This document shows, piece by piece, positions 26,623-50,531 of a stretch of DNA of 64,000 nt. The notes under the pieces were generated by a model. The model saw only the letters and a list, made by a program, of their open reading frames with translations, was not told where the DNA came from and ran no database searches. Position 1 is the stretch's first letter. Each line of letters starts with the position of its first letter. The stretch lies in the sequence record LC788705.1; one strand, 5' to 3'. Origin of the DNA: Escherichia coli phage NG_A1. Both the position numbers and the translations under genes were made by a program.

Positions 26623-29386
26623 CTAGCTCTGACATTGCTTCATCGTGCATATGTTTTTCCTCGTCAGTCATGAACTTATAAGGAATCGGCATACATTCGA
26701 TTTTACAATAGGTTCTGTACCAGTCTACTATATTTTCAGTGTTCATATCCTTACCAATACCCATCATACCAAGATACATTCTTGCATATTTTGGATTAGC
26801 ACTCTGACCTGTTTTAAGGAAGAAGTCCTTCTTCTTACCTTTCAGAGCTTCTATGAATGGTTTAATGGTCACATTTGAACACTTCTTAATATCTTCCCAG
26901 AACATCTCGTGCATCTTATGAAAGAATGCAGCTCGATCATTTGGTTTATCTTTGATATATTGTTCAACATGCTCAACTGTTACATCTTTAATAGACTCAA
27001 GATGATAATAGCGAACAAGAAGTAGTTTAGCTTCATACGCATCTGCATGACGTGGGGCACAGTAATCCGGAGTTGAATGTAGGATAGCTTTGATTCGCTC
27101 TTCTGTATATTCTTTGCCTGCACCTTCGATAGTTCCCCAGCTTTCACTGAAAATATCAATAGTTGCACCCTGATCAAGCAAGTAATAACGTAAGGTACTA
27201 GTATAGTTCCTAGATTCCAGCTCCCTACGACGTGCGTATAATTGCTGTGCTAACTCCAGCCAACCCTCATCAATATTATATTGTTCAGAACCTGCGGAGA
27301 ATCCACTCGTAGATTTATCAATAAAGTAATAAATGTTCTGAGCACCACGGTCGCGCCTGATTGCTTGGAAACGCATGTTTGGCGCTTGGTTGCTGGTTCT
27401 AGTAATAACGAATACGTTATCAAAATAGTTGAAGTCAACGCCACTTGTTACGGATGGACTACATAATAAGCAATCAATTTGTTGGTCAATTAGCTCATTA
27501 GTTGTGTAATCCAGAATACGTCGAATATCTACATCGGATGTAGAATTTGAGTGGATTTCCTTAACTAACGCACCCGTATTACGACGCAATGCCATGCCCT
27601 TCTCATTCAGTTCATCCGGTCCACAGTCAGATACTAGGATAGATTTCTCACCCATCTCTAGAGAAGTCTGAAGTGCAACCCAAATACTGGATTCATCAGG
27701 GAACTCATAAGCATGAGCTTTTGACAGCATTTTACGGTGATGATTATAAAATGCAACTGGTTTATCAAACTCAATCAAAGAACCATATGCTTCAATTGTT
27801 TCTGCACTAATATCCCCATCAGATAATATAATGATTTTTGCAGTTGCAAGAATATCCCGAAGAACCTGAATACATTCACGACGTTGTTTAACAACCGGGG
27901 CGAATAATAGGTCGTTCATTACTGCATCACATTCATCGATAAAGATTGCATCAATTTGACCAATAAAACTCTTGAACTTATGCAAAGAGTGAATAGTTGT
28001 GGACATACGGTCAATAGCACCACGCTTAAAATTAAGCATATCTACAGACTTATCGTATTGTCCTGCACTAAATTTCTTAGCATTTGAAGATACCAGTGCT
28101 CTAGTATTGGTAATTGCTAAAAAATTACCTTTAATAACTCCTGAATCTAACCAACGCACAACCGCCGTGGTTTTACCTGTGCCTAAACTCGCTTTTACAA
28201 AAGTCATATAACCTTCTGGTGGCACAGTATTTAGTTTCAAGAAATTATCAGTTTCTAGAGAATTAGTTTCTAGCTTTTTAAGTGGAATACCTTTTAAAAT
28301 ATCGGGTATATCGCGTTTAGAATTATTAACAAACGCTTTCAGAGCCTGCTTACGACCGTTATTAAAATAATCTTGAATATTACGACTGTTATCTTTAGTT
28401 GCGATATATTCTGATAAGGCTGGACGGATTTCTTTTTCTAGCCATGCAAAATCAACACCATCCTCTAATGCTCTATGGTATAGTTTGGGGATAATACGCA
28501 AGTACACCCCATCCTCAGCTTCTTCTAGTTCGCTGATAGTTTCCTCTACTTTATCAGAGGCAGCTTTTTTACCTTTAATTTGATCGAGTAAAGAGTAAAA
28601 CTCCTCCTTAAACTCACCTCTAGTTGTTTCATAGTCAACCAGATTATTTGGTAAATTTACTTTAGAACCTTTAACAAATACCAGACGTGAAGCACCCTCC
28701 GCTTTAAACGGATCTACTATACCATCGGTAAATAACGGATCTGCAAAATAATGGAGCTGTACGGAAGAGTAATAAGCTAAGTCGGCAATATCAAAGCCGT
28801 ACTTTTGTCTACTACTTTCATTGATAGATGTAAATAAGAATTTGATTTGACCCTGAGTTACTTTAACATTAGATTCTAGTATTAAGTGCATTCGGATACC
28901 TGGTTTTAGCCCAGCCGAAGACGATGCATGAGCGATAAACCCTGCATCAAGAGGAAACATATCCTCACTAATACTATTTAACATCCTAATAATATGTCGA
29001 GCCATGCCAACAAGATCAAACTTGTTACAACCACCTGTATCTACAATACCATCCACGTCCATTGCAATTATATGACTTGGGTTAGATACATTAAAGTTGC
29101 CCTTCTTACGTCGCACATTATTTTTAGGTGCAAGACATCGACCTCGTACCGCAACGATATGAGGGTCAGACGTTAAACGTCTCATAAGAGGAAGCATTTC
29201 TACTAGGGTTTGAGGATCAACTTCATCAATTACATCAAACTTGAAGGGCATTGAGGCTGGTTTACCTTCAGGATGCTTTGAGGAAAATCTTTTAGCAAAA
29301 AGATAGTCTTCTGCTTTAACTTCTCGCCAATTGCCTGTGGCTAAATCGCGATGAAATCCTGCATGACCTTGTAGGATTGAGAACAT
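26597..29386 (-). CDS. Replication origin-binding-protein-like SF2 helicase
   Basis: About 929 aa; Walker A (GTGKTT), DExD-like Walker B (IFIDECDAV); start placed at ATG 29386 with AGGAG RBS, not the TTG at 29464. Confidence 0.7.
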   Translation of the reverse strand: MFSILQGHAGFHRDLATGNWREVKAEDYLFAKRFSSKHPEGKPASMPFKFDVIDEVDPQTLVEMLPLMRRLTSDPHIVAVRGRCLAPKNNVRRKKGNFNVSNPSHIIAMDVDGIVDTGGCNKFDLVGMARHIIRMLNSISEDMFPLDAGFIAHASSSAGLKPGIRMHLILESNVKVTQGQIKFLFTSINESSRQKYGFDIADLAYYSSVQLHYFADPLFTDGIVDPFKAEGASRLVFVKGSKVNLPNNLVDYETTRGEFKEEFYSLLDQIKGKKAASDKVEETISELEEAEDGVYLRIIPKLYHRALEDGVDFAWLEKEIRPALSEYIATKDNSRNIQDYFNNGRKQALKAFVNNSKRDIPDILKGIPLKKLETNSLETDNFLKLNTVPPEGYMTFVKASLGTGKTTAVVRWLDSGVIKGNFLAITNTRALVSSNAKKFSAGQYDKSVDMLNFKRGAIDRMSTTIHSLHKFKSFIGQIDAIFIDECDAVMNDLLFAPVVKQRRECIQVLRDILATAKIIILSDGDISAETIEAYGSLIEFDKPVAFYNHHRKMLSKAHAYEFPDESSIWVALQTSLEMGEKSILVSDCGPDELNEKGMALRRNTGALVKEIHSNSTSDVDIRRILDYTTNELIDQQIDCLLCSPSVTSGVDFNYFDNVFVITRTSNQAPNMRFQAIRRDRGAQNIYYFIDKSTSGFSAGSEQYNIDEGWLELAQQLYARRRELESRNYTSTLRYYLLDQGATIDIFSESWGTIEGAGKEYTEERIKAILHSTPDYCAPRHADAYEAKLLLVRYYHLESIKDVTVEHVEQYIKDKPNDRAAFFHKMHEMFWEDIKKCSNVTIKPFIEALKGKKKDFFLKTGQSANPKYARMYLGMMGIGKDMNTENIVDWYRTYCKIECMPIPYKFMTDEEKHMHDEAMSELGARNDSEE

Positions 29387-29885
29387 AACAATACTCCTGT
29401 GTTGGAAATAAAATAAGTTTTCTTTAGGACTATTCAGAAAGAATAGAACAACTGTTACTGTCAATTTCTCAACAAATTAATCGCAAATACTGAAGTGGGG
29501 TGGCAACTTCCACTTTCACGCTGCGCTGCTGCTTTGCTATATCGCACAAATCCTTGAGGATGGCCGCTAAGCCAGATTTGCTCACCTAATGCTTCATATA
29601 CTAGCTCATACTAGATGCAATATAACTTACAGAATCACGTCTCGGAGTTTTTCACTCCTCCCATCTCACTTCACAACCACCTCATACTAGGTTGCTTCGA
29701 GGCCTTACCAGGGTTCCTATGGGACGCAGATCGCTAAGTATTCTATTAACTATTTGTTTAAAAACTAACACGTAACAGTTAAAACAACCCTTAATGGGGC
29801 AGCCTAACTGTTCCGTATCGCGGATTGTAAACAAGAAAAATTAGCAAAATCAATTTTTACTAATGTCTCTCAATTCAATATAAAT

Positions 29886-29914
29886 ATTATATCAAGATTT
29901 TGGGCATCCTGCAA
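29886..29914 (-). promoter_or_regulatory. Promoter driving the long non-coding leader upstream of the origin-binding-protein gene
   Basis: Minus-strand TTGCAG-N17-TATAAT; about 480 nt of ORF-free transcript would precede the gene. Confidence 0.55.
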
Positions 29915-30005
29915 GTAAAATTTTCCGGATGGTGCTATCATTGGTCTTGAGTACGGATAAAACCGAGCCAAAATGACTCGGTAATCAGAGTTCAGCTAAT
30001 AAAAA

Positions 30006-30398
30006 TCATTCATCATTTAAGCCTGGAACATAAATCCCAACACGGTTTAATTGTTCTTTAGCTTCTTTGAGAATATCTGGAGTGTACTCCCAAATATCAT
30101 CTTCCACCTGTAAAAGATGGGGCGAACAACCATCATCCGACACACGACATATGGCCAAACCACGTGGGTGGAACAAAGAGAAATTTAGGGCAACAATTAA
30201 ACCCATAGCAGACAACTCATTCCAATCCAACTCCCATTCCCCCGCGTAGCCGGATAGGAAAACACCAACACAGGGATCATCTATTTGCTGCTCCGGAAAA
30301 GTGAAGGAGGCTTGTCTTACCCCCAACCAACGTTGCAGCAGCTTCTCCCCACGTTTCACCAAACTAGGATCAATCTGACGCCAATATACTTGTTCCAT
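30006..30398 (-). CDS. Hypothetical protein, tandem paralog A
   Basis: 130 aa; shares PC(V/I)G...W.EL..MGL..ALN..LF.P...PGL pattern with 30408-30836. Confidence 0.5.
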   Translation of the reverse strand: MEQVYWRQIDPSLVKRGEKLLQRWLGVRQASFTFPEQQIDDPCVGVFLSGYAGEWELDWNELSAMGLIVALNFSLFHPRGLAICRVSDDGCSPHLLQVEDDIWEYTPDILKEAKEQLNRVGIYVPGLNDE

Positions 30399-30407
30399 TC
30401 TGCCTCC

Positions 30408-30836
30408 TTAAGCAGTTAAACCTGGGATCATATACCCGAAACGTCGAAGTTTCTGAATCCCCTCATTTACTTCTTCCGGTGAGTAAGACCAACCATAACG
30501 TTCATTAACCTGAAAACCAGGAGATTCACTAGTTTTATAGTTAACAACAAGGCGATGCTTAGCAGGCATAAACAGCTTATAATTTAACGCAAAAACTAAG
30601 CCCATTTCGTCTAACTCTTTCCAGCCCACAATCTCTTCAAGACCCTCCTCTACCTGCACAATTAAACCAATACAGGGAGCCTCATCAATATCATCTTTAA
30701 AAGCAAAGGAGATTTCGTTATTCTCACACCATATTTTCAAAGAGTTAATAGCCTCATTATACAGGCTAGCTGGGAGAGTACGCCAAAAGTTAGCCAAAAT
30801 TGGGTTAGCTTTTTTAGAGAATACATTATTGAACAT
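30408..30836 (-). CDS. Hypothetical protein, tandem paralog B
   Basis: 142 aa; paralog of 30006-30398. Confidence 0.5.
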   Translation of the reverse strand: MFNNVFSKKANPILANFWRTLPASLYNEAINSLKIWCENNEISFAFKDDIDEAPCIGLIVQVEEGLEEIVGWKELDEMGLVFALNYKLFMPAKHRLVVNYKTSESPGFQVNERYGWSYSPEEVNEGIQKLRRFGYMIPGLTA

Positions 30837-30838
30837 AT

Positions 30839-31345
30839 TTACACCTTAAATTGTTGCAAGGATTTACACATTTCAAGATCTGGGCTAAATTCTAGCATAT
30901 AGCTAACAGCTTTTAAATCTTGAAGATTTATCCCAGTCCTACCATTGACTATAACCGTTGGATACTGGTACATCATAGCACCAGCGTCATCCAGAACACA
31001 CCAATGTTTGAGCTTATGCTTTTCAACGAAGCGAAGAACAGAATTACCCCTAGATAATCCACCCCCAGTAAAATCCGTTGTACCAAGAAAACGATCGATA
31101 AGACCTAATCCGGTCATAATCTGAACGTTCTCCATCTCATTCCTGACAGAGAACCATGAGGATACTCCAACAATCATTATCGGAGAAGGACGAATAAAGT
31201 CCTGAAAAGCCTTGAGAAGCGGTTTGAAAACCCAATCACTTCCAAAGAAAATCTTTTCGTCATCAGGTGCATGATGGTGGGAGATGCTCGAATTGAGCAC
31301 CCCATCAATATCTAGAAAAATAATTGGAGTATTACTTATTTCCAT
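30839..31345 (-). CDS. HAD-superfamily phosphatase-like protein
   Basis: N-terminal DxDGV motif (IIFLDIDGVLN) and later VLDDAG typical of HAD hydrolases. Confidence 0.6.
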   Translation of the reverse strand: MEISNTPIIFLDIDGVLNSSISHHHAPDDEKIFFGSDWVFKPLLKAFQDFIRPSPIMIVGVSSWFSVRNEMENVQIMTGLGLIDRFLGTTDFTGGGLSRGNSVLRFVEKHKLKHWCVLDDAGAMMYQYPTVIVNGRTGINLQDLKAVSYMLEFSPDLEMCKSLQQFKV

Positions 31346-31541
31346 TTTTGTTCCTTTCTAAGAACCTATCATACTCAACCGTATCAACATATATAACACC
31401 ATAGTCATCGGATTTATAGTCCATCTCCCACAGCTCACAGCGATAGCACCAACTACCATCCGCCCATACAAATATATCATCGGGGTGTGTATACACAGAT
31501 TTAACTATGGACATACCTGTTTCCCTTGCTTCTCGACACAT
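31332..31541 (-). CDS. Hypothetical small protein
   Basis: 69-aa ORF overlapping neighbours. Confidence 0.35.
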   Translation of the reverse strand: MCREARETGMSIVKSVYTHPDDIFVWADGSWCYRCELWEMDYKSDDYGVIYVDTVEYDRFLERNKNGNK

Positions 31542-32337
31542 AAGGTCTACCCTCTAAATGAGCTTCTACACGAGCAATAAAATCAGGATCACTAAAAGCA
31601 TCTACCGCACCTTTACTCCAGTAAGGGACACCACGTTCTTCCAGCTGGTACATCTCACTACGAGTCATACCTTGATAGCCCGGTTCCGCCGCGAGGGCAC
31701 TATCATAGTAGTTAACTACCATAAATTTCGCAGCAGTCCTATTAAGAACAGGAAATAATTCCCAGTAGAAGTTAATTACTTGGTTAGAGCAACCAACCAC
31801 AATGATCATATCTTGACTGGTAATACCATCAAAAACATTATACATTTCTGCGTATGCAGGAGCATGCTCTCCAAAGAAGATTACATTAGGTTTAACCCAT
31901 TTATAATCATCTGGATCAATAGAATTGTATCCTACATCAATAATCCGTTTATTGCTACTATTGTAGCTATCAGCTACAACAACCTCTTTTAAATATCCGT
32001 GAATATGCAGAATGTCACTATGTGGAACGCCAGCACGCTCAATAAGGTCATCAACGTTGGTAGTCAAGTTTACTACTTGACCTGGATATTGTTTATACCA
32101 TTCACCAATACGCAAATGCGCAAGATTGGGTTCAACAGTTTTTAGCTCTTCACGACGCTTGTTGTAAAACATATGGGTTTTATGATAAAAATTACCACGA
32201 AAGGCATGAATATTACATACTTCTTCTAGATCATAGTCATCCCACAATGCTTTACCACTAGCAGTATCAGTACGGAAGGCTCGTACACCACTTTCAACAC
32301 TCAAACCCGCACCACTAATAATAATTAATCTACGCAT
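31501..32337 (-). CDS. Sir2-family (sirtuin-like) NAD-dependent enzyme lacking the zinc ribbon
   Basis: Sirtuin motifs GAGxS...G...FR (ISGAGLSVESGVRAFR), TQN(I/V)D-like (LTTNVDDL), catalytic HG (ILHIHG); no CxxC...CxxC zinc module. Confidence 0.65.
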   Translation of the reverse strand: MRRLIIISGAGLSVESGVRAFRTDTASGKALWDDYDLEEVCNIHAFRGNFYHKTHMFYNKRREELKTVEPNLAHLRIGEWYKQYPGQVVNLTTNVDDLIERAGVPHSDILHIHGYLKEVVVADSYNSSNKRIIDVGYNSIDPDDYKWVKPNVIFFGEHAPAYAEMYNVFDGITSQDMIIVVGCSNQVINFYWELFPVLNRTAAKFMVVNYYDSALAAEPGYQGMTRSEMYQLEERGVPYWSKGAVDAFSDPDFIARVEAHLEGRPYVSRSKGNRYVHS

Positions 32338-32551
32338 TTTTCACCTGTTCTCTGAAGTTTTGCCCAATACTGTCTAATAGCTCAGCTAATTCTTTATTGC
32401 CTTTCTCCATTAAGGTATTAGCAATAACTTCTAGCATAGTAGCGCAGGATTCAACACCATCCTTATAGCCAGTTTCCCAGTGCTGCATTAATGCGTTTTC
32501 CAAAGCGGCGTTTAAACCCTTATCTGGTAGCATCGGCTTCGAGAATGCCAT
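32330..32551 (-). CDS. Hypothetical protein
   Basis: 73-aa ORF. Confidence 0.4.
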   Translation of the reverse strand: MAFSKPMLPDKGLNAALENALMQHWETGYKDGVESCATMLEVIANTLMEKGNKELAELLDSIGQNFREQVKNA

Positions 32552-48720: not shown

Positions 48721-49732
48721 ATATTCATAAATTAGAGAACAGCGAGCCGATTACGCTGAACTTGTCTTAATGTAAGATGCGTCGAGCACTAAGATTCGTT
48801 GAATAGAGTCGGTGGGTTAGTTGTAAAACTAGTACACAGGGGGCGGCAATCCCGGTTAGTGGCTAGAACGTGTAAAATGAGGCGTCTGAAACCTCTCCCC
48901 TAAACTCTTCTCTAATTTATAAATAGTGGGGTGTGGAAATCACTTATGTAGTAACACTGCCGTCCTAGTATAATTGGTATTATCAAGCCGTAACTGGTGG
49001 AAGATGTAGGTTCGAATCCTACGGTCGGTAAGAACTGGATAACTGATGCTTTTAATGTAAAAGCTTCCGAGGTTAGTTGCGCACTGCCTAAACCACGCGG
49101 TAGTTGGTTCCAGACTAACCAACCAGTCTGCTGAATAGTTTTATTACGATTTAACTATGTCCAGGCTAAAGAAGAACTTTAGAAGGTATTCTAGGATAGT
49201 GAAGTTCTTTCTCCATATCGGAGTAGTTTTTCAAGCTATCCACAAAGTGGGAAATGCTGACATGAGAGATGTCACTAATGGTGCACAATAGCACAGGTAA
49301 TTCGCGATAACTCCTGTTGAGTAGCAGCAAAAGGTGGGAAGTCATGACCCCAAGCCTAACCGAGTCCTCAATATACCGCAGGACATAACTACTAAGTCAC
49401 CCTGACTTAAACTGGAAAATAATAGACGTTACTGTATTTTGTCTTGAAATACTTAATGAGTGAGACTTATGACTCTCCCGGTATCGTCTGTATTTTTAAG
49501 AGTTTTTACGAGAGTTCTTAAAAATACTTAAACGGGGTGTAGTCTAAGGGAGAGGCAGGAGTCTTCTAAATTCCTTTATGCAGGTTCGAATCCCTTGTCA
49601 CGCACCAAATTTGATGGTCAGAGTAAATTAAACCTACTATCTCGGTTGAGCTGTTTTAATGGGTTCGAATCCCAGCGAGGCGTAACTGCCTGGTGTGATA
49701 GAGGCATCATTCCACTAACATTGGAAAAACTA

Positions 49733-49968: not shown

Positions 49969-50059
49969 GGAAGAGCAAATCGAATTGGCGACGAAAACCG
50001 CTTGGAAAGTGGCTGACTGGTAAAACGGCTTGAGAGTTCAAATCTCTCCTCTTCCGCCA
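49969..50059 (+). tRNA. tRNA-Ser(GGA)-like, type II, CCA encoded
   Basis: 7-bp acceptor GGAAGAG/CTCTTCC, T-arm GAGAG-TTCAAAT-CTCTC, discriminator G + CCA, anticodon loop TTGGAAA; D-arm atypical (4-nt linker). Confidence 0.5.
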
Positions 50060-50071
50060 AACAATTTATAT

Positions 50072-50166
50072 GGTAGGTCAATCCAACGGCTGGCGCTGGA
50101 CTCCGACTTGAAATCGGTTGATCGTAGTGATACGGTGTAAGGGTTCGATCCCCTTACCTACCTCCA
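50072..50166 (+). tRNA. tRNA-Ser(TGA), type II, CCA encoded
   Basis: Acceptor GGTAGGT/ACCTACC, anticodon stem-loop CCGA-CTTGAAA-TCGG, variable arm CGTA-GTGA-TACG, T-arm AAGGG-TTCGATC-CCCTT. Confidence 0.6.
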
Positions 50167-50171
50167 AATCT

Positions 50172-50302
50172 TGGAATATGCCGGAATTGGTAGACGGGAC
50201 TGCCGAATAGGTTTACTAGGAACATCCACTCCTAGAAATATACCTTAAAAGCGGTTGAGTTAAATGGTCTAACTCATGAAGGTTCAAGCCCTTCTATTCC
50301 TT
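50172..50302 (+). ncRNA. Oversized tRNA-like element (131 nt) with Leu-type D-arm and canonical T-arm
   Basis: 5' TGGAATA-TG-CCG-GAATTGGTAGA-CGG; 3' GAAGG-TTCAAGC-CCTTC + TATTCCT pairing the 5' end; internal arms do not fit a cloverleaf. Confidence 0.4.
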
Positions 50303-50531
50303 GATACATCAATGGCTCAAAGTGTAACGGTGCTATTTGATGCTCTTGGAAAGACTTTCCCGACATGCGTTCGGGGGTAAGCTTCTGAGGCTAGAATAGA
50401 AGAGTTTCTGAGAGCCGCCACAATTGAAAATTCGTACTCGTCTTGAGCTGCATGCAATAGGAGATAACTTGATTAGTATTCTAGAACATGCTAATTGAGG
50501 ATGGTTTCGCTAACCCTGCGAGTTTTCAATT

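What the first reader, a model, noticed from the sequence alone, without database searches (positions are those of the whole stretch)
50172..50302. 131-nt tRNA-like element: Leu-type 5' half and canonical 3' T-arm/acceptor separated by about 45 extra nucleotides
The 5' end (TGGAATA-TG-CCG-GAATTGGTAGA-CGG) looks like a type II tRNA acceptor plus D-arm, and the 3' end (GAAGG-TTCAAGC-CCTTC-TATTCCT) pairs with it. The interior holds two stem-loops with 9-10-nt loops (CTAGG...CCTAG and TGAGTT...AACTCA) and no 7-nt anticodon loop. It may be an insertion-bearing tRNA, a tRNA-derived regulatory RNA or a pseudo-tRNA.
Basis: seen in the sequence. Interest (0 to 1): 0.5.

Follow-up and report, generated by a model that had tools for sequence, protein, structure and literature searches.

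The report
Phage T5 tRNA-like RNA1 orthologue
This is the counterpart of "RNA1", a tRNA-shaped small RNA already annotated in bacteriophage T5: a leucine-tRNA relative whose anticodon arm has grown into a long conserved hairpin, so it almost certainly does not decode codons, and its function is still unknown.

Summary
Window 50172-50302 folds as a type II (Leu-like) cloverleaf whose anticodon arm is a 57-nt, three-segment hairpin (50199-50255). The window is a T5-like phage. The element is about 95% identical and syntenic to misc_RNA rna1 ("RNA1, tRNA-like stable RNA with unknown functions") in the T5 record AY543070, so it is already known. It occurs in 492 phage records and is almost never annotated. 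On 29 distinct homologues 97.5% of pair cells are paired and 12 of 36 pairs show compensatory changes, including all three segments of the long arm. ARAGORN in intron mode calls it tRNA-Leu(UAA) with a 40-nt intron. That reading fails comparatively: the "anticodon" is UAA only in the T5 lineage and AAA or AAC elsewhere. Position 73 is U, not the A73 that LeuRS needs, 1:72 is a U·U mismatch, and no CCA is encoded. Genomes with an identical RNA1 also carry a canonical tRNA-Leu(UAA). RNA1 evolves faster than the neighbouring tRNAs while preserving its structure and two invariant loops. Best reading: a tRNA-Leu-derived, non-decoding tRNA mimic or scaffold, processed like a tRNA, whose partner is unknown.

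The parts
50172..50178 (+). Acceptor stem, 5' strand (UGGAAUA). Position 1 is a conserved U facing U72.
   Evidence: Pairs 2-7 always form and 3-4 of them covary. 1:72 is never a standard pair in non-Klebsiella copies.
50181..50197 (+). D arm, CCG-GAAUUGGUAGA-CGG. It is Leu-type with a 3-bp stem and G18G19.
   Evidence: Invariant in 29 homologues. It matches the D arm of T5 tRNA-Leu(UAG) in the model alignment.
50199..50255 (+). 57-nt long arm replacing the anticodon arm. Stem 1 is ACUGC/GCGGU (50199-50203 with 50251-50255). Stem 2 is AGGU/ACCU (50209-50212 with 50242-50245). Stem 3 is CUAGGA/UCCUAG (50216-50221 with 50230-50235). A-rich internal loops separate them.
   Evidence: Compensatory changes occur in 3, 2 and 3 pairs of the three stems. 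RNAalifold predicts the same arm.
50222..50229 (+). Apical loop ACAUCCAC. The surrounding GAACAUCCACUC is nearly invariant across five lineages.
   Evidence: Alignments A2, A3 and A5.
50204..50243 (+). The 40 nt that ARAGORN's intron mode treats as an intron between positions 32 and 33.
   Evidence: The position and resulting anticodon are not conserved.
50244..50250 (+). CUUAAAA, a remnant identical to the anticodon loop of T4 tRNA-Leu(UAA). It is present only in the window/T5 lineage.
50256..50276 (+). Long variable arm: a 7-bp stem (UGAGUUA/UAACUCA) with the invariant loop AAUGGUC.
   Evidence: One compensatory pair (U-A, A-U, C-G) and an invariant loop.
50278..50294 (+). T arm, GAAGG-UUCAAGC-CCUUC, with the canonical U54 U55 C56 and A58.
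   Evidence: Stem paired in 100% of cells. Rfam gives a partial tRNA hit over 50234-50302 at 21.6 bits.
50295..50302 (+). Acceptor stem 3' strand (UAUUCCU) plus U at position 73. No CCA is encoded.
   Evidence: Genuine phage tRNA-Leu genes have A73 and CCA.
50170..50313 (+). The span corresponding to the T5 GenBank feature rna1 (AY543070 30501-30644). It includes a 2-nt leader and the conserved trailer UGAUA.
   Evidence: Pairwise alignment with T5 at about 95% identity and the T5 annotation.

Best explanation
The element is the orthologue of bacteriophage T5 RNA1. It is a gene derived from a type II tRNA-Leu, in which the anticodon arm has been expanded into a 57-nt, three-segment hairpin. 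It keeps everything needed for the L-shaped tRNA body: U8, A14, G18G19, the T loop, the long variable arm and a terminal stem. It has lost the features needed for decoding and leucylation. The inferred mechanism is as follows. It is transcribed within the early polycistronic tRNA transcript. It is excised by the tRNA-processing enzymes (RNase P at the 5' end, and endo- and exonucleases at the conserved UUGAUA trailer) because of its tRNA body, which also makes it stable. It then acts as a tRNA-shaped mimic or scaffold, not as an adaptor. Its invariant apical loop (ACAUCCAC) and variable-arm loop (AAUGGUC) are presented to a partner that has not been identified. Steps shown here: identity with T5 RNA1, Leu-type ancestry, the structure, absence of a conserved anticodon, absence of A73 and CCA, and coexistence with canonical tRNA-Leu genes. 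Steps inferred: the processing route, stability, lack of charging, and the role of the loops.
For: Identity: the window is 99.8% identical to Tequintavirus mar004NP2. The element is about 95% identical and syntenic to T5 rna1, 'tRNA-like stable RNA with unknown functions', and phage BF23's record carries the same label. Structure: 97.5% of cells are paired, 12 of 36 pairs are compensatory, and controls are far lower. RNAalifold agrees, with 13 compensatory pairs. Leu ancestry: the best hit of model R1 outside the family is T5 tRNA-Leu(UAG), E about 6e-10, and removing 40 nt gives an ARAGORN tRNA-Leu call. Non-decoding: the would-be anticodon is UAA, AAA or AAC and the 'intron' site varies. U73, U1·U72 and no CCA contrast with G1-C72, A73 and CCA in T5 tRNA-Leu(UAG) and T4 tRNA-Leu(UAA). 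E. coli LeuRS requires A73 (PMC9976931). Canonical tRNA-Leu(UAA) and tRNA-Leu(UAG) coexist with RNA1 in lineages A, B and C. Selection: RNA1 is about 85% identical between lineages whose tRNA-His, Gln and Ser genes are 99-100% identical, yet pairing is preserved and two loops are invariant. It is present in 492 records, against 499 that match the surrounding 3-kb tRNA block. It is retained in the window although an adjacent deletion of about 7.2 kb removed about a dozen tRNA genes. The Klebsiella-phage lineage keeps the core at 96% identity but has a wholly different, longer terminal helix. This points to the elbow and arms, not a tRNA 3' end, as the conserved module.
Against: No expression or end-mapping data could be examined here, and 'stable RNA' rests on the depositors' GenBank note. 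No partner was identified. Loop matches to rRNA (16S 994-1001 identical; 23S 2668-2675 complementary) are at chance level. The viable T5 deletion mutant T5-123 (Δ29191-32442) lacks RNA1, so it is dispensable in the laboratory, and the fragment carrying it did not rescue PARIS sensitivity (PMC11464382). RNA1 is the fastest-evolving element of the block, which relaxed constraint could also explain. The perfect CUUAAAA remnant in the T5 lineage is not explained by a non-decoding role, other than as an ancestral relic.
Confidence: 0.6

Rival explanations
1. It is a functional intron-bearing tRNA-Leu(UAA). The 40 nt at 50204-50243 are removed from the precursor and the halves are ligated, giving a 91-nt decoder for UUA/UUG codons, at least in the T5 lineage.
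For: ARAGORN in intron mode calls tRNA-Leu(taa) i(33,40), and the 'spliced' sequence is a clean type II tRNA-Leu. The junction loop CUUAAAA equals that of T4 tRNA-Leu(UAA). T5 itself has no canonical tRNA-Leu(UAA). One GenBank record (JLBYU40) annotates it as tRNA-Leu(taa).
Against: The loop is not conserved: AAA in three lineages, AAC in Hongcheonvirus, with a variable 'intron' position. The inserted hairpin, however, is conserved and covaries, which is not expected of a mere intron. U73, U1·U72 and no CCA contradict LeuRS identity rules. mar004NP2, whose RNA1 is identical to the window's, and JLBYU40 also carry a canonical tRNA-Leu(taa). T5 lacks it only because hegA occupies that segment. 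The 3' junction lies inside stem 2, so there is no bulge-helix-bulge motif. Forty nt is far too short for a group I intron, and Rfam finds no intron or ribozyme. No splicing machinery for such introns is known in bacteria or phages (my own knowledge).
Confidence: 0.04
2. It is a decaying tRNA-Leu pseudogene with no function of its own, tolerated because the tRNA block is dispensable.
For: It is the fastest-evolving element of the block. It has lost A73, G1-C72, CCA and the anticodon loop. It is dispensable in T5-123. The block contains other degenerate tRNA-like sequences, such as window 48959-49030 and T5 RNA3.
Against: 97.5% of pair cells stay paired, with 12 compensatory pairs including 8 in the inserted arm. 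Two loops are invariant across subfamilies. It is present at full length in 492 records and 9 metagenome contigs, with no truncated or broken copies seen.
Confidence: 0.1
3. It is a cis-acting processing 'punctuation' element. Its tRNA shape only recruits RNase P and 3' nucleases, to cut the polycistronic transcript and release or stabilise the neighbouring RNAI, RNAIII and tRNAs.
For: In T5 the annotated 3' end of RNA1 abuts the 5' end of RNAI, and RNAIII abuts tRNA-His. The trailer UUGAUA is conserved.
Against: In Klebsiella Sugarlandvirus phages RNA1 has different neighbours, with no RNAI or tRNA-His downstream. In L018 the downstream sequence differs as well. Punctuation would not require a conserved 57-nt arm or invariant apical and variable-arm loops.
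Confidence: 0.12
4. It is a tRNA-shaped decoy or inhibitor of a host factor that grips tRNAs. Candidates are an immune tRNase that recognises the anticodon arm (PARIS AriB, OLD-type Toprim nucleases, retron effectors), a synthetase, or a processing enzyme. It would bind without being consumed.
For: T5-family tRNAs are documented counter-measures to tRNA-targeting defences (PMC11464382, PMC11555353, PMC12409363, PMC12445682). RNA1 combines an intact tRNA body with an uncleavable-looking rod in place of the anticodon arm. It evolves fast while keeping its structure, as expected in an arms race.
Against: There is no direct evidence. The T5 fragment containing RNA1 did not rescue PARIS sensitivity. 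The invariant loops argue for one fixed partner, not a diversifying interface.
Confidence: 0.12

Closest known systems
Bacteriophage T5 RNA1 (misc_RNA rna1; AY543070/NC_005859 30501-30644; also BF23, NC_042564)
   Same: It is the orthologue: about 95% identical, with the same position between tRNA-Ser(UGA) and RNAI/RNAIII/tRNA-His. Model R1 scores 152 bits on the window copy and 150 bits on the T5 copy.
   Different: There are a few substitutions, some compensatory. T5 has a small ORF (T5.063) between tRNA-Ser and RNA1 that the window lacks. The depositors give no function.
Type II tRNA-Leu of phages and hosts (T5 tRNA-Leu UAG, T4 tRNA-Leu UAA, E. coli tRNA-Leu)
   Same: It shares the D arm and D loop with G18G19, the T arm, the long variable arm and overall cloverleaf. 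The remnant CUUAAAA equals the T4 Leu(UAA) loop.
   Different: A 57-nt arm replaces the 17-nt anticodon arm. It has U1·U72, U73 and no CCA. It scores below the Rfam tRNA gathering score (21.6 against 29). It evolves much faster than real tRNAs.
T4 species 1 RNA (rnaC) and T5 RNA2: other stable tRNA-like RNAs inside phage tRNA clusters
   Same: They share the genomic niche and general plan of a terminal stem, a canonical T arm and one greatly extended arm, and their function is also unknown.
   Different: There is no detectable sequence or model similarity to RNA1. The arms are arranged differently. RNA2's arm ends in a T-arm-like hairpin.
tRNA-Leu(UAA) genes with a group I intron (cyanobacteria, plastids)
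   Same: Both are Leu(UAA)-type genes interrupted in the anticodon loop.
   Different: Those introns exceed 200 nt, sit between positions 34 and 35 and have a conserved catalytic core (my own knowledge). Here the insert is 40 nt at 32/33, there is no Rfam intron hit and the junction is not conserved.
tRNA mimics that use the tRNA body for other purposes: tmRNA tRNA-like domain, bacterial YrlA (Y RNA-like), gammaherpesvirus tRNA-miRNA chimeras, and the engineered 'tRNA scaffold' in which the anticodon arm is replaced by a cargo RNA (my own knowledge)
   Same: The principle is the same: a tRNA elbow and terminal stem give processing, modification and stability, while another part carries the function. 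The engineered scaffold has exactly this topology.
   Different: There is no tmRNA call and no Rfam hit to any of these families. YrlA has its ends on the long stem, not on the acceptor stem. No membership is claimed.

Membership tests
T5 RNA1 family (GenBank misc_RNA rna1) | Sequence orthology to T5 rna1 | tested here: met
   About 95% identity over the whole feature. Model R1 scores 152.3 bits on the window and 150.2 bits on T5.
T5 RNA1 family (GenBank misc_RNA rna1) | Position in the tRNA block: after tRNA-Ser(UGA), before RNAI, RNAIII and tRNA-His | tested here: met
T5 RNA1 family (GenBank misc_RNA rna1) | Accumulates as a stable RNA in infected cells | not testable with these tools
   Only the depositors' note in AY543070. 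No open-access paper describing it was found.
Canonical decoding tRNA (Rfam RF00005) | Acceptor, D and T arms with tertiary-interaction nucleotides | tested here: met
   U8, A14, G18G19 and U54U55C56/A58 are all present.
Canonical decoding tRNA (Rfam RF00005) | 5-bp anticodon stem closing a 7-nt loop with U33 and a conserved anticodon | tested here: not met
   The stem encloses 47-48 nt. The assembled 'anticodon' differs between lineages (UAA, AAA, AAC).
Canonical decoding tRNA (Rfam RF00005) | Score at or above the family's gathering score | tested here: not met
   21.6 bits over 50234-50302 against a gathering score of 29. ARAGORN's default mode does not call it.
tRNA-Leu (E. coli LeuRS substrate) | Discriminator A73 | tested here: not met
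   U at 50302 in the window and in all non-Klebsiella copies. The rule is from PMC9976931. Genuine phage tRNA-Leu genes have A73.
tRNA-Leu (E. coli LeuRS substrate) | D/T-loop tertiary pairs (G18:U55, G19-C56, U54:A58), with A14 and A15 | tested here: met
   The required nucleotides are present and invariant. Pair formation itself is inferred.
tRNA-Leu (E. coli LeuRS substrate) | 3' CCA end and aminoacylation | not testable with these tools
   CCA is not encoded (UAUUCCU-U-GAUA). Post-transcriptional addition and charging need experiments.
Intron-containing tRNA (protein-spliced, bulge-helix-bulge type) | Both splice sites in 3-nt bulges flanking a 4-bp helix | tested here: not met
   The 3' junction (50243/50244) lies inside the covariation-supported stem 2, ACCU 50242-50245.
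Intron-containing tRNA (any type) | Removal of the insert restores the same functional anticodon loop in homologues | tested here: not met
   A canonical tRNA-Leu(UAA) also coexists with RNA1.
Group I intron in tRNA-Leu(UAA) | Catalytic core of paired regions P3-P9, over 200 nt, inserted at 34/35 | tested here: not met
   The insert is 40 nt at 32/33. There is no Rfam intron or ribozyme match at E up to 10.
tmRNA | tRNA-Ala-like ends with G3·U70, a tag reading frame and pseudoknots | tested here: not met
   ARAGORN finds no tmRNA. Rfam gives only 10-bit fragments elsewhere. Pair 3:70 is G-C, A-U or U·G.
T4 rnaC / T5 RNA2 (other phage tRNA-like stable RNAs) | Sequence or structure-profile similarity | tested here: not met
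   No R1 hit on T5 RNA2, T4 rnaC/rnaD or the Acinetobacter phage 133 element at E up to 10. The resemblance is architectural only.

The most novel reading that the evidence does not exclude
RNA1 is an RNA-based counter-defence or host-takeover factor. It would be a tRNA-shaped decoy whose rod-like arm and invariant loops let it bind, without being cleaved or charged, a host enzyme that recognises tRNAs, such as an anticodon-arm-directed immune nuclease. Its fast but structure-preserving evolution would reflect an arms race. This would give a function to the 50-year-old class of unexplained tRNA-like stable RNAs in phage tRNA clusters (T5 RNA1 and RNA2, T4 species 1 and 2).
Probability: 0.1. 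Interest if true: 0.7.

Novelty: already known. Interest (0 to 1): 0.3.

Why it matters
As an object it is not new. T5 RNA1 has been in GenBank since 2004 as a tRNA-like stable RNA of unknown function. What this analysis adds is practical. (1) The family is present in about 490 sequenced T5-like phages. It is left unannotated or overlaid with spurious small ORFs in nearly all of them, is labelled "tRNA-Leu(taa)" in at least one record by an intron-tolerant tRNA finder, and has no Rfam family. (2) A covariation-supported structure now shows which parts are constrained: the elbow, three arms and two invariant loops. (3) The tempting "phage tRNA with a 40-nt intron" reading can be set aside. If someone finds the partner of the invariant loops, that would bear on an old open question: why phage tRNA clusters carry tRNA-shaped RNAs that cannot decode.

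Tried and rejected
1. Intron-bearing tRNA-Leu(UAA). This was my first working hypothesis and ARAGORN -i backed it. I rejected it on three grounds: the anticodon is not conserved, the acceptor end is wrong, and a canonical tRNA-Leu(UAA) coexists with RNA1. An apparent anticorrelation (T5 lacks the canonical gene, S147 and HildyBeyeler have it) disappeared when mar004NP2 and JLBYU40 were checked.
2. Bulge-helix-bulge and group I intron tests were negative.
3. A coding explanation fails: no ORF over 34 aa overlaps the element.
4. I searched for an uninterrupted relative sharing the variable and T arms. The metagenome scan gave 9 contigs, all with the full long arm. BLAST with the Klebsiella version found the same 492 records.
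5. Host origin: there was no BLAST match in 5,426 E. coli genomes. The shared 15-nt D-arm stretch is too short to score in a database of that size.
6. Loop targets: identity to 16S 994-1001 and complementarity to 23S 2668-2675 were found, but at background frequency for 7-9-mers.
7. Homology with T5 RNA2 or T4 rnaC/rnaD: no model hit.
8. Extended terminal helix: convincing only in Klebsiella phages. In the others only 2-3 invariant pairs are possible.
9. Literature: six searches found no open-access description of RNA1. The T4 genome review (PMC150520) is not held.
10. One viral-contig scan was wasted on a pattern that was one base too long.

Full report
What the window is. A 3-kb stretch around the finding is 99.8% identical to Tequintavirus genomes such as Escherichia phage vB_Eco_mar004NP2, and matches about 500 T5-like phage records. 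The finding lies in the phage's tRNA gene block. That block runs tRNA-Ser(GGA) 49969-50059, tRNA-Ser(UGA) 50072-50166, the element at 50172-50302, about 230 nt of other non-coding sequence, and then tRNA-His, Gln, Gln, Gly, Thr, Ile and Met.

Checking the observation. The minimum-free-energy fold gives exactly this cloverleaf (-36.9 kcal/mol, z = -2.1). ARAGORN in default mode and Rfam at gathering score do not call the element. Rfam's permissive scan gives only a partial tRNA match of 21.6 bits, against a threshold of 29.

It is already annotated in phage T5. The reference record AY543070, deposited by a group that studied T5 tRNAs experimentally, has a misc_RNA 'rna1' at the syntenic place, with product 'RNA1' and note 'tRNA-like stable RNA with unknown functions'. 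It is followed by 'RNAI' and 'RNAIII' (stable RNAs of unknown function) and tRNA-His. Aligning the window with T5 shows about 95% identity across the feature. The T5 annotation maps to window 50170-50313, RNAI to 50314-50420 and RNAIII to 50425-50530. The BF23 record carries the same label. Six full-text searches found no open-access description of RNA1. Recent T5 tRNA papers do not mention it.

Distribution and structure. BLAST finds the full-length element in 492 phage records. These are Markadamsvirinae infecting Escherichia, Salmonella, Citrobacter, Shigella and Yersinia, the Klebsiella Sugarlandvirus phages, and the Pectobacterium Hongcheonvirus. Identity falls to about 73%. Only the T5 and BF23 records call it an RNA. 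One record, JLBYU40, calls it a 134-nt tRNA-Leu(taa). The rest leave it blank or place small hypothetical ORFs over it. From fetched records, IMG/VR contigs and metagenome contigs I collected 29 distinct sequences in five lineages. On this alignment my proposed structure has 97.5% of cells paired, against 40-50% when partners are slid by 1-3 columns. Twelve of 36 pairs have changes on both sides, and no shuffle out of 500 reaches the observed values. The structure consists of an acceptor stem, a 3-bp D stem, a three-segment long arm, a 7-bp variable arm and a T arm. Compensatory pairs occur in the acceptor stem (3), in all three segments of the long arm (3, 2 and 3) and in the variable arm (1). 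The D and T stems are invariant. RNAalifold recovers the same architecture without being given it, finding 13 compensatory pairs. The unpaired apical sequence GAACAUCCACUC and the variable-arm loop AAUGGUC are essentially invariant.

Ancestry. A covariance model built from the family scores 152 bits on the window. Outside the family it scores best on T5's own tRNA-Leu(UAG), at 38.7 bits and E about 6e-10, through the shared D arm and T arm. The element is therefore a Leu-type tRNA derivative.

The intron reading, tested. ARAGORN with introns allowed reports 'tRNA-Leu(taa) i(33,40)'. Removing 50204-50243 leaves ACUGC-CUUAAAA-GCGGU and a clean 91-nt type II tRNA-Leu. CUUAAAA is the anticodon loop of T4 tRNA-Leu(UAA). 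I took this seriously, the more so because T5 has no canonical tRNA-Leu(UAA) whereas Epseptimavirus S147 and HildyBeyeler do. Four tests speak against it.

(a) In the other lineages the same procedure yields anticodon AAA (19 sequences) or AAC (1), with the 'intron' at positions 35, 36, 37 or 39. UAA appears only in the 9 sequences of the window/T5 lineage.

(b) Genuine phage tRNA-Leu genes have G1-C72, A73 and an encoded CCA. RNA1 has U1·U72, U73 and no CCA in every non-Klebsiella copy. A73 is the key determinant for E. coli LeuRS, which ignores the anticodon and the variable arm (PMC9976931).

(c) The complementarity does not hold. mar004NP2, whose RNA1 is identical to the window's, and JLBYU40 both carry a canonical tRNA-Leu(taa) and tRNA-Leu(tag) as well as RNA1. 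T5 lacks the canonical gene only because the hegA homing-endonuclease gene occupies that segment.

(d) The 3' junction lies inside the covarying stem 2, so there is no bulge-helix-bulge motif. Forty nt cannot hold a group I core, and Rfam finds no intron or ribozyme. The CUUAAAA heptamer is best read as a relic of the ancestral tRNA-Leu(UAA) loop that happens to survive in one lineage.

Evolutionary behaviour. In the same genome pairs, tRNA-His, tRNA-Gln and tRNA-Ser are 99-100% identical and RNAIII is 98-99%. RNAI is 92-93% and a neighbouring ORF 92-97%, while RNA1 is only about 85%. RNA1 is thus the fastest-evolving element of the block, yet its changes preserve pairing. That does not fit a translating tRNA, which is constrained by synthetase, EF-Tu and the ribosome. 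It does not fit a decaying pseudogene either. In the Klebsiella phages the core from D arm to T arm is about 96% identical to Epseptimavirus copies. Their terminal stem, however, is entirely different. It continues into seven further leader-trailer pairs and is followed by A instead of U. The conserved module is therefore the elbow plus three arms, and the terminal stem only needs to be a helix. No uninterrupted relative sharing the variable and T arms exists in the metagenome collection.

Context from experiments by others. The viable T5 mutant T5-123 lacks 29191-32442, which includes RNA1. Among three sub-fragments of that interval, only the one with tRNA-Pro, fMet, Lys and Val rescued infection of PARIS-carrying cells (PMC11464382). 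RNA1 is thus dispensable in the laboratory, and it was not an anti-PARIS factor in that assay. T5-family tRNAs are nevertheless established counter-measures to tRNA-cleaving defences (PMC11555353, PMC12409363, PMC12445682). That keeps a decoy role conceivable but untested.

Most likely mechanism. RNA1 is a neofunctionalised tRNA-Leu paralogue. It is transcribed within the early tRNA transcript. It is excised and stabilised because it still has a tRNA body, which is inferred from the intact acceptor/T-arm stack, the elbow nucleotides and the conserved trailer. It is not charged and does not decode. It acts through the long arm and the two invariant loops on a partner still to be found. T5 RNA2 and T4 species 1 RNA share the general design of a terminal stem, a canonical T arm and one oversized arm, but they are not detectably homologous. 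The design matches the engineered 'tRNA scaffold' used to express structured RNAs in E. coli (my own knowledge). My confidence is about 0.95 for the identity with T5 RNA1, about 0.85 for 'non-decoding', and about 0.45 for the scaffold/mimic mechanism. The overall value given is 0.6.

Loop partners. The apical loop is identical to 16S rRNA 994-1001, and that 16S context also contains UGGUCU, the core of the variable-arm loop. UCCACUCC is complementary to 23S 2668-2675, next to the sarcin-ricin loop. However, 7-9-mer matches of both kinds are scattered over RNA1 at roughly the expected chance rate. I record these matches as unexplained and do not count them as evidence.

Verdict. It is the already-annotated T5 RNA1, so novelty is 'already known'. 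Interest is modest at 0.3. The object and the open question about it are old. The useful additions are a covariation-backed structure, rejection of the intron reading, and the finding that hundreds of genome records lack or mislabel this gene.

Noticed in passing
window 49532-49607 (junction about 49583-49601): Relative to mar004NP2 the window has a deletion of about 7.2 kb. Its junction lies in the shared T-loop sequence GGTTCGAATCC, fusing the 5' part of tRNA-Arg(UCU) to the 3' end of tRNA-Leu(UAG). About a dozen tRNA genes, including the canonical tRNA-Leu(UAA), are gone. The chimera scores only 21.2 bits with Rfam, yet ARAGORN calls it tRNA-Arg(tct).
   Followed up: yes
window 50314-50420: This is the orthologue of T5 'RNAI' (stable RNA, function unknown). 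It has a terminal stem GGCUC/GAGCC followed by G-CCA, which is a tRNA-like 3' end, around a long irregular hairpin. It is 92-93% conserved between lineages.
   Followed up: partly
window 50425-50530: This is the orthologue of T5 'RNAIII' (stable RNA, function unknown). It has a terminal helix of about 15 bp (UUGAAAAUUCGUA... with ...GCGAGUUUUCAA) and its fold z-score is -3.4. It is 98-99% conserved, and its 3' end abuts the 5' end of tRNA-His.
   Followed up: partly
L003:6960-7084 (T5 RNA2) and L037:1201-1262 (Acinetobacter phage 133, NC_015250 69557-69618): T5 RNA2, the other 'tRNA-like stable RNA', also folds as a cloverleaf with an extended anticodon arm of about 55 nt ending in a T-arm-like hairpin. 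It is present in 439 phage records. Its 3' half matches, at 86% over 63 nt, an unannotated gap between tRNA-Gly and tRNA-Cys in a T4-like Acinetobacter phage. The RNA2 family therefore seems to be shared between Demerecviridae and Straboviridae.
   Followed up: partly
L038:1409-1547 (T4 rnaC, species 1 RNA): T4 species 1 RNA folds very stably (-50.2 kcal/mol, z = -4.6). It has a canonical T arm, a long variable-arm-like hairpin and an arm of about 65 nt. This is the same general plan as T5 RNA1 and RNA2, without detectable homology.
   Followed up: partly
window 49969-50059 and 50072-50166: The two type II tRNA-Ser genes (GGA and UGA), which relatives annotate, are missed by default ARAGORN and by Rfam at gathering score. 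The UGA one appears only as a sub-threshold tRNA-Sec hit of 38.3 bits.
   Followed up: partly
window 48959-49030: This is a tRNA-like sequence with good acceptor, D and T arms but a poorly formed anticodon region. Rfam scores it at 35.5 bits with 18 unaligned nt, and ARAGORN does not call it. It may be another degenerate tRNA-like RNA of the block.
   Followed up: no
L053:9603-9679 (HildyBeyeler), L054:7216-7292 (mar004NP2): The 'canonical' tRNA-Leu(UAA) of Tequintavirus phages is a 77-nt tRNA with a short variable loop, that is class I architecture, with A73 and CCA. Epseptimavirus S147 has an unrelated 86-nt type II tRNA-Leu(UAA) at the same place. In T5 the hegA homing-endonuclease gene occupies the segment.
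   Followed up: partly
window 50222-50229 and 50263-50269, against E. coli 16S 986-1001 (L048): The two invariant loops of RNA1 (ACAUCCAC, and UGGUC within AAUGGUC) both occur within 16 nt of each other in 16S rRNA (CCUGGUCUUGACAUCCAC). My rough post-hoc estimate of the joint chance is about 0.01, but short matches to rRNA are common across RNA1.
   Followed up: partly
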